DNA of 53,673 nt, from sequence record NC_079183. The stretch is one strand, 5' to 3'. The notes beneath the pieces are model-generated. The model did no database searches, had not been told where the DNA came from, and saw only the letters and a program-made list of their open reading frames with translations. Made by a program: the position numbers and the translations under genes. The DNA comes from Escherichia phage vB_EcoM_SA91KD. Below are positions 26,816 through 51,651 of the stretch, piece after piece; the first letter of the stretch is position 1, and each line of letters begins with the position of its first letter.

Positions 26816-27409
26816 ATGTCTTGTATGACCCAAGTTGTTGCAGTTAAACGAGTGCATCCTAATGCGAAATTACCTGTGTACGCTACTGCTGGCGCTGCTG
26901 CTGCTGACGTTTGTACTATCTCCGATAGCACTGTTGTTATCAACCCCGGCTGCTCTGTTGCTTTCGATACTGGCCTCCAATTCGAGGTTCCAGTTGGATA
27001 CGAACTCAAAGTACATAGCCGTTCTGGTCATGGCTTTAAGTCTGGCATCCGCTTGGCAAATTGCACAGGAATTCTGGACTCCGATTATCGTGGCAATCTT
27101 ATGGTTAAGCTGCACAACGACTCGGACACAGCCTTTGTGGTTCAGCCAGGTGAACGTATTTGTCAAGTGCAAGTTAGTAAAGCTACTCAACACCATTTCG
27201 TTGAAGTTGACCGCTTGAATGCAACTGGTCGTGGTGAAGGTGGCTTTGGCTCAACTGGTCGTGTGGAGCTTGGTCAGCACGAAAGACCACATATTCCTGA
27301 TGGTTCACACTCGCACAGCATGTCTGTTGTTGGCGAAGGCACAACGGCCTTTGTTTCAGGAACAACTTCAATTGGTGCCCACACTCACGGGGCCGAACGT
27401 TACAAATAA
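26816..27409 (+). CDS. dut: Trimeric dUTPase with about 47-aa His-containing C-terminal extension (197 aa)
   Basis: dUTPase motifs RSGHG, GILDSDYRG, RGEGGFGSTG; then extension ...DGSHSHSMSVV...GAHTHGAERYK. Confidence 0.8.
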   Translation: MSCMTQVVAVKRVHPNAKLPVYATAGAAAADVCTISDSTVVINPGCSVAFDTGLQFEVPVGYELKVHSRSGHGFKSGIRLANCTGILDSDYRGNLMVKLHNDSDTAFVVQPGERICQVQVSKATQHHFVEVDRLNATGRGEGGFGSTGRVELGQHERPHIPDGSHSHSMSVVGEGTTAFVSGTTSIGAHTHGAERYK

Positions 27410-27427
27410 ATCTGGAACCTATCTGAA

Positions 27428-27757
27428 ATGAAACTGTCCTCACCTGTTGTAGTAAATAACCGCAAAGTTAAATTTGCATATCTCAAGTCTAATGTCACCT
27501 CCACTGGTGGCGGGACTTATCTCACCCGTGCACTTGCAGTTCGCAACGAAACAGGTGCGGATGTTATCGTTTTCATGCTCCCTCATGGTGAAAACACAAT
27601 CAAGAACGTCGAACGTATCAAGCGTGGGCGCGAAGATTTAATGTCGGCTGTCAAGCCGCTGATACTGCCATTTAAGATTGTGGTGGTTGTTGGTTCTACC
27701 CAAGCATATCTTGAAGATTTCTATAAAGATATGGCCTGGAGCGATATTAAATATTAA
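27428..27757 (+). CDS. Hypothetical protein (109 aa); small-terminase position
   Basis: ORF upstream of TerL; no motif. Confidence 0.45.
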   Translation: MKLSSPVVVNNRKVKFAYLKSNVTSTGGGTYLTRALAVRNETGADVIVFMLPHGENTIKNVERIKRGREDLMSAVKPLILPFKIVVVVGSTQAYLEDFYKDMAWSDIKY

Positions 27758-27774
27758 GCGACACGCATAATTAG

Positions 27775-27792
27775 GGAGGCTATCTGGCCTCC
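27775..27792 (+). terminator. Hairpin ggaggc-tatctg-gcctcc followed by T-rich sequence
   Basis: 6-bp GC-rich perfect stem then tatcttatt. Confidence 0.5.
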
Positions 27793-27812
27793 TATCTTAT
27801 TCGGAGTCGCTT

Positions 27813-27998
27813 ATGCGCACAATACAATGTCCTAACTGCCATTATGAAATTGCAGAAGATGATTTCATAACGCAACAATGTCCTATCTGTGATTCATATA
27901 TGCCACTAAATCGCCTGTATTTAAAGGCCGATTCTGGTTTAGGCAGCATCATTCGCATCAATCCCGTGCAAACTCAGCCATTAGTGGATTGTGATTAA
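27813..27998 (+). CDS. Zinc-ribbon small protein (61 aa)
   Basis: CPNCH...CPICD; ggag RBS. Confidence 0.5.
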   Translation: MRTIQCPNCHYEIAEDDFITQQCPICDSYMPLNRLYLKADSGLGSIIRINPVQTQPLVDCD

Positions 27999-50613: not shown

Positions 50614-51651
50614 ATGGCTAAAGGTTATTCTTTAGATGCATTGGTTAAGGAGAAGTGGTCAAGGTACACCACTTCCGTGACCACTGGTACAGACTTCGAC
50701 AACCTAAATACTGTAGAGCTTAGTGGAATATATTACATTCCATCAATATCTCTTGCGAACAGTCTTCTTAATATCCCGGTTAAGGTCGCTGGCATTGTAG
50801 AAGTTCTTCCGTGGTCCAACTCCACAGGGTGCGTCATACAAAGGTTTACCACATACAGCGATGGGACTGAGTGGAAGAGGTCATATGATGGGGTTAAGTG
50901 GTCCCCGTGGAGCCAGACACTAACATCGTTAAACGTATTTAGTGTAATGTACCCAATAGGCATTGTCGTCCAGTTTGATAACGCCACTAACCCAAACAAC
51001 TCCTTCATCGGAACTGTGTGGGAACAGATTGTAGATGGCCGCTCTGCCCGTGCTGCCACTGGTCCGGAAGCTGGTACGGCTGATGGTCAGATTGGTTCAG
51101 TAGCTGGGTCTGATACAACCACGATTGCTGTGACAAACATGCCAGGCCACACGCACGGTATGCAGAACCACACGCACGGTATTGCATCTCACACCCACAC
51201 GATGGCTCACACCCACACCATTAACCATGACCACGGTGCAGTGACGTCAAGCTCTGCTGGTGCACACACTCACACAGTATCTGGTACTGCTGCAAGTAAT
51301 GGCAACCACACTCACACTGTGCCGTCGGTTAACGGTGGTAACTCAGGTGGTAGCATACCACTCCGCTCAGGCCGCAATGACGTAGAATCAAACTCTACAA
51401 ACACTGGCACTGCTGGTGCACATACTCACTCAGTAAGCGGAACTGCTGCCTCTTCTGGCGCTCACACGCACTCTGTTGACTTACCCAACTTCACAGGTAC
51501 AAGTGGTGGCTCCAGTGCTGGTAACACAGGCGGTACGGCACTGACCACTGGTGGCCCCAGCAATAACGAAACAACCTCAACTGGTGGCGGGACCGCACTC
51601 AATGTGCGCAACTCTTCACACTATTACGCCTTCTGGAAACGGGTGGCTTAA
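50614..51651 (+). CDS. Tail fiber / collar-domain protein with multiple H-T-H triads (about 345 aa)
   Basis: ATG after agga RBS (track ORF starts at 50563); repeats PGHTHG, NHTHG, SHTHT, AHTHT, GAHTHTV, NHTHTV, GAHTHSV (x2); Gly/Ser/Thr-rich. Confidence 0.55.
   Translation: MAKGYSLDALVKEKWSRYTTSVTTGTDFDNLNTVELSGIYYIPSISLANSLLNIPVKVAGIVEVLPWSNSTGCVIQRFTTYSDGTEWKRSYDGVKWSPWSQTLTSLNVFSVMYPIGIVVQFDNATNPNNSFIGTVWEQIVDGRSARAATGPEAGTADGQIGSVAGSDTTTIAVTNMPGHTHGMQNHTHGIASHTHTMAHTHTINHDHGAVTSSSAGAHTHTVSGTAASNGNHTHTVPSVNGGNSGGSIPLRSGRNDVESNSTNTGTAGAHTHSVSGTAASSGAHTHSVDLPNFTGTSGGSSAGNTGGTALTTGGPSNNETTSTGGGTALNVRNSSHYYAFWKRVA

What the first reader, a model, noticed from the sequence alone, without database searches (positions are those of the whole stretch)
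26816..27409. dUTPase with a His-containing C-terminal extension echoing the tail-fiber H-T-H motifs
After the final dUTPase motif (RGEGGFGSTG) the protein continues for about 47 residues containing SHSHS and GAHTHG. The same H-T-H triads recur many times in the tail fiber gene (50614-51651). Phage dUTPases are known to moonlight through extra motifs, so a possible metal-binding tail is worth testing.
Basis: partly seen in the sequence, partly recalled or inferred. Interest (0 to 1): 0.4.

Follow-up and report, generated by a model that had tools for sequence, protein, structure and literature searches.

The report
Phage dUTPase with fibre-like His tail
A standard phage dUTPase carries a short, variable C-terminal tail built from the same Gly-x-His-x-His units that bind iron in T4-type tail fibres; selection keeps the tail where it exists, close relatives can lack it, and its metal binding is inferred, not shown.

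Summary
ORF 26816-27409 (+) encodes a 197-aa protein. Residues 1-148 are a canonical trimeric-type dUTPase with all five motifs. Residues 149-197 form a tail with two G-x-H-x-H units (H165/H167, H189/H191). The window is a Carltongylesvirus (Chaseviridae), apparently Escherichia phage vB_EcoM_SA91KD.

The tail is not chance and not junk. In the closest dUTPase clade, 32 of 41 distinct long tails carry 1-4 HxH motifs (52 observed, 14 expected from shuffling). The residues flanking these motifs follow the pattern seen in the phage's own tail fibre. That fibre is homologous to the iron-binding T4 gp37 tip. Where two phages share the tail, selection on it is as strong as on the enzyme core (dN/dS 0.03). 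The tail is also mosaic, and it is absent or decayed in close relatives, so it is accessory. It does not co-vary with the fibre. None of 79 more distant phage dUTPases has it, and I found no paper describing it.

Best reading, which is inferred: in the homotrimer the three copies of each HxH join to bind a metal ion and tie the C-terminal arms together. Monomer AlphaFold gives the tail low confidence, but it does the same for the genuine fibre HxH region. I rate it a new variant of a known kind, of moderate interest.

The parts
26816..27409 (+). Complete dUTPase gene (197 aa plus stop codon)
   Evidence: ORF listing and sequence. Pfam dUTPase E=3.5e-22. PHROG 135 dUTPase E=1e-61. Annotated as dUTPase in 91-97% identical relatives.
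26816..27259 (+). Catalytic core, residues 1-148, with all five dUTPase motifs. Motif V, RGEGGFGSTG, lies at nt 27230-27259.
   Evidence: phmmer match to H. pylori and E. coli dUTPases, E=2e-28 and 9e-26. AlphaFold pLDDT above 90 through about residue 130, falling across motif V. Foldseek target-normalised TM-score 0.85-0.94 to trimeric dUTPases. Catalytic residues are invariant in 62 homologues.
27260..27307 (+). Linker RVELGQHERPHIPDGS (residues 149-164) between motif V and the first HxH
   Evidence: Sequence. One of at least two alternative linker modules in relatives, LGQHERPHIPDG versus VG(E/Q)..YDPSL..SNG.
27302..27319 (+). First G-S-H-S-H-S unit (G163-S168; H165 and H167)
   Evidence: Sequence. 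G at position -2 and a hydrophobic residue at +4, as in fibre HxH units.
27320..27373 (+). Spacer MSVVGEGTTAFVSGTTSI (residues 169-186). The two HxH units are 24 residues apart, start to start.
   Evidence: Sequence. Relatives carry an alternative spacer module, ISIVGDGGVKVSLPGTVEIT. A 24-26 residue spacing recurs in tails with two motifs.
27374..27391 (+). Second unit G-A-H-T-H-G (G187-G192; H189 and H191)
   Evidence: Sequence. The string GAHTH occurs three times in this phage's own fibre.
27392..27406 (+). C-terminal AERYK. The ending (G)AxRYK or ..YK recurs after the last HxH in otherwise divergent tails.
   Evidence: 25 of 34 long tails end in K. P0022 ends GANRYK and P0041 ends GAHFYK.
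50614..51651 (+). Tail fibre gene (345 aa) of the T4 gp37-tip / Gp10_C type. It is the source of the 'echo'.
   Evidence: Pfam Gp10_C at 28.3 bits against a cut-off of 27. phmmer match to T4 gp37 tip 2XGF, E=8e-7. 100% identical to the tail fiber protein of phage vB_EcoM_SA91KD.
51148..51471 (+). HxH region of the fibre (residues 179-286) with nine HxH motifs
   Evidence: All 18 histidines are invariant in 58 homologues. The motifs align with HxH motifs of T4 gp37.

Best explanation
The gene encodes an ordinary, presumably active homotrimeric dUTPase. It sits in the nucleotide-metabolism block of a Chaseviridae myophage (ligase, dNMP kinase, dUTPase). Directly after the catalytic C-terminal arm (motif V) it has gained a short module made of the same G-x-H-x-H units that form the metal-binding core of gp37-type trimeric tail fibres, which is the type of this phage's own fibre.

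Because dUTPase is a trimer, every HxH unit is present in three copies around one three-fold axis. The most likely mechanism is that the three copies of each unit come together and bind one metal ion (Fe2+ or Zn2+) through six histidines, as in the gp37 needle. This phage would then have two such sites separated by a small beta-rich spacer. The result would be a metal-stapled cap that ties the three C-terminal arms together and stabilises the trimer or the closed arm conformation.

Shown here: the enzyme family; the motif pattern; the enrichment; restriction to one clade; purifying selection; mosaic variation and loss.

Inferred, not shown: trimerisation of the tail, metal binding, and any effect on catalysis or stability.
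For: (1) The core is a canonical trimeric-type dUTPase.

(2) In the closest clade, 32 of 41 distinct tails of at least 8 aa carry HxH. There are 52 motifs against 14.2 +/- 3.4 expected when each tail is shuffled, and 0 of 5000 shuffles reach 52. Histidine makes up 11% of tails and 3.5% of cores.

(3) The residues flanking the motifs follow the fibre pattern. G is at position -2 in 42 of 52 motifs. A scoring matrix built from fibre flanks gives -3.6 for the tail flanks, against -13.0 +/- 1.0 when the flanks are permuted (0 of 2000 permutations reach -3.6).

(4) Tails match fibre homologues better than shuffles that keep HxH intact: 26.1 versus 20.7 +/- 0.5 bits on average. For the P0037 tail 0 of 400 shuffles reach the observed score; for the window tail 1 of 400 does.

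(5) The fibre is homologous to the T4 gp37 tip, with HxH motifs aligned. In gp37 these histidines coordinate iron across the trimer and are essential (PMC6957217; PMC11705849).

(6) About half of the HxH-bearing tails have only one HxH. One HxH gives two ligands per chain, so a complete metal site needs several chains. This fits a site shared across the trimer.

(7) For the window versus phage FXie-2024a, the tail has dS 0.68, dN 0.023 and dN/dS 0.034; the core has dN/dS 0.056. The peptide sequence is therefore under selection.

(8) Low pLDDT in a monomer model does not count against the idea, because the genuine fibre HxH region behaves the same way.
Against: There is no direct evidence for metal binding or for folding of the tail. 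The monomer AlphaFold model shows residues 153-197 without secondary structure and with pLDDT below 50.

In trimeric dUTPases motif V closes over active sites at the periphery of the trimer (general knowledge of the family). Some tails place the first histidine only 6 residues after motif V. That may be too short to reach the three-fold axis while the arm is closed.

No profile or structure database recognises the tail as a fibre repeat. The tail is missing or decayed in close relatives (Mangalitsa, PYps23T, flopper), so it is not needed for the enzyme or for the phage. The histidine pattern could serve another purpose.
Confidence: 0.4

Rival explanations
1. The tail is a docking or moonlighting peptide. 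It would be a variable, surface-exposed C-terminal tail that binds another phage or host protein, for example a replication or dNTP-synthesis partner, or a host sensor or repressor. Its cassette-like variation would reflect an arms race, by analogy with staphylococcal phage dUTPases and the Stl repressor.
For: The tail varies in a mosaic, cassette-like way between phages that are otherwise about 95% identical. Synonymous divergence is three times higher in the tail than in the core, which points to recombination. Purifying selection acts within each tail type. The C-terminal ..YK or GAxRYK ending is conserved across divergent tails and could be a docking motif. The tail is predicted to be flexible in the monomer. 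Phage dUTPases are known to bind Stl (PMC4231751, listed).
Against: No partner is known or predicted. The only element conserved across very different tails is G-x-H-x-H, which looks like a metal-ligand signature and not like a binding epitope. There is no motif-VI-type insertion. The tail type does not co-vary with the fibre. This reading is also compatible with metal binding, so it is not fully exclusive of the best explanation.
Confidence: 0.2
2. The tail is a metal site that is not on the three-fold axis. It could be an intrachain or pairwise site (two HxH units in one chain giving four histidines for Zn or Ni), or a histidine-rich metal-sensing switch that controls closure of motif V over the active site.
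For: Tails with two motifs show a recurrent 24-26 residue spacing with a strand-turn-strand-like spacer. This could bring the two HxH units of one chain together. The tail starts directly after the catalytic arm, and some linkers are only 6 residues long. That favours a position near the active site over one on the axis.
Against: Sixteen distinct tails have only one HxH and could not form a four-histidine site within one chain. The motif pattern is that of the interchain His6 sites of gp37.
Confidence: 0.15
3. The tail is recombination debris: a fragment of a fibre-like sequence captured at the 3' end of the gene, tolerated but without function, and on its way to being lost.
For: The tail is absent in Mangalitsa and PYps23T. 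It is truncated and without HxH in flopper and P0011. Single histidines are lost in P0006 and P0008. The region downstream of the gene is an insertion hot spot that holds extra small ORFs and an HNH endonuclease in relatives. The monomer model is disordered.
Against: dN/dS in the tail is 0.034 with dS at 0.68, which is as constrained as the catalytic core. The reading frame stays open in dozens of very different variants. HxH is retained across tails that share no other sequence.
Confidence: 0.1

Closest known systems
Homotrimeric dUTPases (Pfam PF00692; E. coli Dut 1DUP/1RN8, H. pylori 8HRV, phage T5 Dut 8QKY)
   Same: All five motifs are present. There is 34-39% identity to solved bacterial enzymes, and the predicted fold matches them (target-normalised TM-score 0.85-0.94). 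The protein is a member of this family.
   Different: Typical members end 0-2 residues after motif V. This holds for 76 sampled IMG/VR phage dUTPases, of which only 7 have tails of 8 aa or more, and only phiEcoM-GJ1 itself has HxH. It also holds for most of P0049-P0120. This enzyme continues for 49 residues with two G-x-H-x-H units.
T4 gp37 long-tail-fibre tip (PDB 2XGF) and related HxH metal sites in gp12, gp10 and phage tail spikes
   Same: The local pattern is the same: small residue, G, A/S/N, H, T/S, H, S/T/G, hydrophobic. The context is homotrimeric in both. This phage's own fibre is a homologue of gp37. In gp37 each iron is held by histidines from all three chains, and these histidines are essential (PMC6957217).
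   Different: The dUTPase tail has only 1-4 units and is attached to an enzyme, not a fibre. It is not detected by the Pfam models Phage_fiber or Gp10_C, nor by a sequence search of the PDB. Whether it is a true homologue or a convergent motif is unresolved. Metal binding has not been shown.
Staphylococcal phage dUTPases (phi11, 80alpha) that derepress SaPIbov1 by binding the Stl repressor
   Same: Both are phage dUTPases with an extra, lineage-variable segment beyond the catalytic motifs.
   Different: In the staphylococcal enzymes the extra segment (motif VI) is an internal insertion. Here the core aligns to E. coli Dut over residues 11-149 with at most one residue of net length difference, and the extra segment is C-terminal. 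No Stl-like partner is known for Chaseviridae.
Mason-Pfizer monkey virus nucleocapsid-dUTPase fusion
   Same: It is a precedent for a homotrimeric dUTPase core that organises a fused, flexible non-catalytic segment in three copies (PMC1802613).
   Different: That fusion is N-terminal, is a nucleic-acid-binding zinc-knuckle domain, and occurs in a retrovirus. It has no HxH units.

Membership tests
Trimeric dUTPase (PF00692) | Profile match above the curated threshold | tested here: met
   79 bits against a cut-off of 22, residues 16-148. PHROG 135 dUTPase E=1e-61.
Trimeric dUTPase (PF00692) | Five conserved motifs, including the catalytic Asp of motif III and the Gly-rich motif V | tested here: met
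   D31, R69-S70-G71, G85/D88/D90/Y91/R92/G93, R114/Q117 and R139/G143/G145 are invariant or nearly invariant in 62 homologues. Motif V is RGEGGFGSTG.
Trimeric dUTPase (PF00692) | Jelly-roll beta fold of the subunit | tested here: met
   AlphaFold core pLDDT above 90 through about residue 130. Foldseek E=1e-14 and target-normalised TM-score 0.85-0.94 to solved trimeric dUTPases.
Trimeric dUTPase (PF00692) | Homotrimeric assembly and dUTP hydrolysis | not testable with these tools
Trimer formation is inferred from family membership.
gp37-type HxH metal-binding fibre repeat (T4 gp37 tip 2XGF; Pfam Gp10_C / Phage_fiber) | HxH units with the characteristic flanks (G at -2, small residue at -1, S/T/G at +3, hydrophobic at +4) | tested here: met
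   Both units of the window tail fit. Across the clade, G is at -2 in 42 of 52 motifs. The flank score is far above that of permuted flanks (0 of 2000).
gp37-type HxH metal-binding fibre repeat (T4 gp37 tip 2XGF; Pfam Gp10_C / Phage_fiber) | Detectable sequence homology to fibre profiles or solved fibre structures | tested here: inconclusive
   There is no Pfam hit on the tail, in the window protein or in six longer variants. There is no PDB hit beyond chance. Local alignments to fibre homologues do exceed HxH-preserving shuffles: window 1 of 400, P0037 0 of 400, ST32 23 of 400.
gp37-type HxH metal-binding fibre repeat (T4 gp37 tip 2XGF; Pfam Gp10_C / Phage_fiber) | Three chains contribute their HxH to one octahedral metal site | not testable with these tools
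   No multimer or metal modelling was available. The monomer model has low confidence, and so does the true fibre control.
gp37-type HxH metal-binding fibre repeat (applied to the fibre gene 50614-51651 itself) | Homology to the gp37 tip or Gp10_C, with conserved HxH | tested here: met
   2XGF E=8e-7 with HxH motifs aligned. Gp10_C at 28.3 bits against a cut-off of 27. Nine HxH motifs invariant in 58 homologues.
Stl-binding 'moonlighting' phage dUTPases (phi11 / 80alpha type) | Internal variable insertion (motif VI) between the conserved motifs | tested here: not met
   The core aligns to E. coli Dut over residues 11-149 against 12-151, so there is no room for a motif-VI-sized insertion. Staphylococcal phage enzymes align only over residues 3-106.
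Stl-binding 'moonlighting' phage dUTPases (phi11 / 80alpha type) | Binding to a repressor or other signalling partner | not testable with these tools
   No partner is known. The literature searches found nothing for Chaseviridae dUTPases.

The most novel reading that the evidence does not exclude
The fibre-derived HxH module makes the dUTPase a metal-gated enzyme. Binding of Fe2+ or Zn2+ on the three-fold axis would tether the three motif-V arms and switch catalysis or a second, non-catalytic activity on or off. This would be the first case of a tail-fibre metal-needle element reused as a regulatory trimer clasp on a metabolic enzyme, and it would be exchanged between phages as a cassette.
Probability: 0.12. 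Interest if true: 0.7.

Novelty: new variant of a known kind. Interest (0 to 1): 0.42.

Why it matters
If the tail does form a metal-stapled trimeric cap, it would show that the HxH metal site of phage fibres is a portable trimer clasp that can be attached to unrelated trimeric proteins. It would also give dUTPase researchers a natural system in which the flexible catalytic C-terminal arms are tied together. The natural series of tail variants with 0 to 4 HxH units on nearly identical cores is a ready-made experimental panel. In practical terms, the tail is a recombination hot spot that explains why the dUTPase is less conserved than its neighbours in Carltongylesvirus comparisons (82% against more than 90% in the ST32 paper). 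If the tail has no function beyond modest stabilisation, this is a minor curiosity of one phage family.

Tried and rejected
1. Trimer modelling. I submitted three copies of the protein joined by Gly-Ser linkers.

2. Word-indexed protein search with the 49-aa tail alone. It found no candidates at all. This is a limit of the tool for short queries.

3. Exhaustive HMMER search of 1.84 billion cluster representatives with residues 143-197. It returned only the tail's own cluster and two hits that I reject as artefacts. P0241 is a translated tandem repeat and P0242 is a 3491-aa repeat adhesin. Neither has HxH, and their scores come from summing many weak repeat matches.

4. Search of the PDB with the tail alone (window tail and P0022 tail). 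Only chance matches to antibody heavy chains and a cement protein appeared.

5. Pfam scan of six long-tail variants at E up to 10. No family covers any tail.

6. Recent duplication or gene conversion from the fibre. Rejected, because only a 16-nt patch is shared at the DNA level.

7. Co-evolution of the tail with the fibre. Rejected. FXie-2024a has the same tail (96% identical) but a fibre only 54.5% identical. JL1 has the closest fibre (76%) but a tail that is only 76% identical.

8. An overlapping gene as the cause of tail conservation. Rejected, because most differences between the window and FXie-2024a are synonymous in the dUTPase frame.

9. Literature. No paper in the library links dUTPase with HxH motifs or describes this extension.

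Full report
What is there

The window is a complete or nearly complete genome of a Carltongylesvirus, a phiEcoM-GJ1-like myophage of E. coli in the family Chaseviridae. A 20-kb stretch is 94-97% identical to phages JL1, Bp7, flopper, ST32, DE15 and phiEcoM-GJ1. The tail fibre protein is 100% identical to that of Escherichia phage vB_EcoM_SA91KD, whose contig has the same length as the window, 53,673 bp.

ORF 26816..27409 on the + strand is one uninterrupted 197-codon frame. It lies in a nucleotide-metabolism block. DNA ligase and dNMP kinase are upstream. Two small ORFs of unknown function and the large terminase are downstream.

Residues 1-148 are a canonical dUTPase:
- Pfam PF00692 matches at 79 bits against a cut-off of 22.
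- phmmer gives E=2e-28 to H. pylori Dut and 9e-26 to E. coli Dut.
- All five motifs are present, and the catalytic residues are invariant in 62 homologues.
- The AlphaFold core has pLDDT above 90 through about residue 130.
- Foldseek gives target-normalised TM-scores of 0.85-0.94 to solved homotrimeric dUTPases.

After motif V (RGEGGFGSTG, residues 139-148) the protein continues with RVELGQHERPHIPDGSHSHSMSVVGEGTTAFVSGTTSIGAHTHGAERYK. The two HxH units are H165/H167 and H189/H191.

The fibre side of the echo

ORF 50614..51651 (345 aa) has nine HxH motifs, eight of them H-T-H. All eighteen histidines are invariant in 58 homologues. The protein passes the Pfam Gp10_C threshold. It matches the receptor-binding tip of T4 gp37 (PDB 2XGF) at E=8e-7, with HxH motifs aligned to HxH motifs. 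In gp37 these histidines from the three chains hold a row of seven iron ions. Alanine substitution of H929 or H931 abolishes plaque formation (PMC6957217; summary in PMC11705849). The units that the dUTPase tail resembles are thus genuine metal ligands in a trimeric protein of the same phage.

Is the resemblance more than chance?

Several tests say yes:
- In the six-frame translation of the whole window, the best non-self matches of the tail all lie in the fibre's HxH region, 51097-51480.
- A protein search gave 120 dUTPase homologues. In the closest clade (57-98% identity, mostly on contigs of about 53 kb) plus ten annotated relatives, there are 41 distinct tails of 8 aa or more. Of these, 32 carry HxH.
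- Those tails hold 52 HxH motifs against 14.2 +/- 3.4 expected when each tail is shuffled. None of 5000 shuffles reaches 52. Histidine is 11% of tail residues and 3.5% of core residues.
- The flanks follow the fibre pattern. G is at -2 in 42 of 52 motifs, S or A at -1, S/G/T at +3, and a hydrophobic residue at +4. A scoring matrix built from fibre flanks, with the histidines excluded, scores the tail flanks at -3.6 against -13.0 +/- 1.0 for permuted flanks (0 of 2000 reach -3.6).
- Tails match a panel of 120 fibre homologues better than shuffles that keep HxH intact, 26.1 against 20.7 +/- 0.5 bits.
- One divergent tail, P0037 (NIPVNDLPAHDHG..HTHIMT), lines up with the start of the fibre's HxH region (NIAVTNLPGHTHG..HTHTMT), and 0 of 400 shuffles reach its score. 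For the window's tail 1 of 400 does. For ST32 the result is weak, 23 of 400.

At the DNA level only a 16-nt patch is shared with the fibre. This is not a recent copy. Ancient derivation and convergence cannot be told apart with these data.

How the tail evolves

Among phages whose cores are 83-97% identical, the tail is a cassette:
- Absent in Mangalitsa and PYps23T. Their proteins are 150 aa, and the stop codon follows ..GRV directly.
- Without HxH in flopper.
- One HxH in Bp10 and TH53.
- Two HxH in the window, FXie-2024a, phiEcoM-GJ1 and ST32.
- Longer still in DE15 and Pel53.

Modules are recombined between phages. There are two linker types, two spacer types and two C-terminal endings. 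More distant members with quite different tails still keep G-x-H-x-H. Examples are P0022 with three units, P0037 with four, P0041 and P0042. They sit in the same gene order: ligase, dNMP kinase, dUTPase, small ORFs, terminase.

Outside this clade the feature disappears. Homologues below about 57% identity end 0-2 residues after motif V, or carry unrelated extensions without HxH. In 80 IMG/VR loci, 76 have a recognisable motif V, 7 have tails of 8 aa or more, and only phiEcoM-GJ1 itself has HxH.

Where two phages share a tail type, the peptide is strongly conserved while the DNA has drifted. For the window versus FXie-2024a, the tail has dS 0.68, dN 0.023 and dN/dS 0.034. The core has dS 0.21 and dN/dS 0.056. 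This excludes a non-functional read-through and an overlapping gene in another frame. The three-fold higher dS in the tail fits a separate recombination history. The tail type does not follow the fibre type. FXie-2024a shares the tail at 96% identity but its fibre is only 54.5% identical. JL1 has the closest fibre, at 76%.

Structure prediction

In the monomer model residues 153-197 have pLDDT below 50 and no secondary structure. As a control I predicted the phage's own gp37-like fibre as a monomer, with a 58-sequence alignment. Its HxH region (about residues 170-300) scores pLDDT 40-64, although it is a conserved part of a folded trimeric fibre. The low confidence of the dUTPase tail therefore does not say whether it folds in the trimer.

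Most likely mechanism

dUTPases of this family are homotrimers. Each HxH unit is therefore present three times around one axis, which is the arrangement that builds the six-histidine metal sites in gp37. Sixteen distinct tails have just one HxH. One HxH gives two ligands per chain, so a full coordination sphere needs several chains.

I therefore favour a small metal-stapled trimeric cap, with two sites in this phage. It would hold the three C-terminal arms together and stabilise the trimer or the arm conformation. This is inference. My confidence in it is about 0.4.

The main difficulty is geometric. Motif V closes over peripheral active sites, and some natural linkers are only 6 residues long.

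The rivals are:
- a variable docking or moonlighting peptide (0.2);
- a metal site that is within one chain or near the active site, possibly acting as a switch on motif V (0.15);
- tolerated recombination debris (0.1), which the selection data argue against.

Comparison with known systems and novelty

The protein is a member of the trimeric dUTPase family. Its tail uses the motif pattern of gp37-type fibre repeats. No profile or structure search recognises it as one, so I do not file it as a member of that repeat family.

It is not like the staphylococcal phage dUTPases that bind Stl, because it has no internal motif-VI insertion. The retroviral nucleocapsid-dUTPase fusion is a precedent for the trimeric core organising an attached segment (PMC1802613).

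Four literature searches found no description of this tail. The ST32 genome paper notes only that the dUTPase is 82% identical to that of phiEcoM-GJ1, while its neighbours exceed 90%.

I rate it a new variant of a known kind. It is real, specific to one clade, under selection and testable. It is also small, accessory and without demonstrated function. Interest: 0.42.

Noticed in passing
whole window (1-53673): The window appears to be the complete genome of Escherichia phage vB_EcoM_SA91KD. The fibre protein is 100% identical to that phage's tail fiber protein, and its source contig is 53,673 bp, the same length as the window. The genus is Carltongylesvirus, family Chaseviridae.
   Followed up: partly
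window 27410-27990; relatives L001, L004-L007, L011-L013: The stretch between the dUTPase and the terminase is an insertion hot spot. Relatives carry an extra 52-73 aa ORF directly after the dUTPase; in the metagenomic relatives L011-L013 it hits Pfam Phage_T7_Gp5_9, the family of the T7 RecBCD inhibitor. FXie-2024a has an extra 111-aa ORF. phiEcoM-GJ1 and Pel53 have an HNH endonuclease before the terminase. The window has none of these.
   Followed up: partly
window 27222-27233 and 27252-27263: There is an exact 12-nt direct repeat, CAACTGGTCGTG, with copies 30 nt apart. The copies encode ..ATGRG and ..STGRV on either side of motif V. Recombination between them would delete exactly ten codons in frame and remove most of motif V. 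FXie-2024a has the repeat and ST32 does not.
   Followed up: no
window 50614-51651: The tail fibre is by far the most divergent gene examined. The best match in the phage collection is 76% identical at the protein level (JL1), while the rest of the genome is about 96% identical at the DNA level. All nine HxH motifs are nevertheless invariant in 58 homologues. Related HxH regions occur in fibres of Felixounavirus and of phages with side tail fibres.
   Followed up: partly
window 27260-27406 compared with L005 (FXie-2024a): Synonymous divergence in the tail (dS 0.68) is about three times that of the dUTPase core (0.21) in the same pair of phages. The tail-coding segment therefore has a different, older or recombinant, history than the rest of the gene.
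   Followed up: partly
dUTPase tails of P0001-P0048 and loci L001-L010: Two regularities have no explanation yet. Tails with two motifs often space the HxH units 24-26 residues apart. Also, 25 of 34 long tails end in Lys, often as ..(G)AxRYK or ..NYKP, even when the rest of the tail is unrelated.
   Followed up: no
P0076, P0077, P0089, P0091, P0114 (dUTPase homologues outside the clade): Other dUTPases carry unrelated C-terminal extensions without HxH. One type is about 65 aa (..KVGQRVRLSP..). Another is about 95 aa; of its two carriers, P0091 is named by NCBI as Burkholderia ubonensis dUTP diphosphatase and P0114 is an unattributed JGI protein. C-terminal appendages on dUTPases are therefore recurrent and of several kinds.
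   Followed up: no
Staphylococcus phage Pel53 (PP952070.1; L009): A record labelled as a Staphylococcus hyicus phage is a Carltongylesvirus-like genome with about 87% protein identity to this E. coli phage's dUTPase and the same gene order. The host attribution looks doubtful.
   Followed up: no
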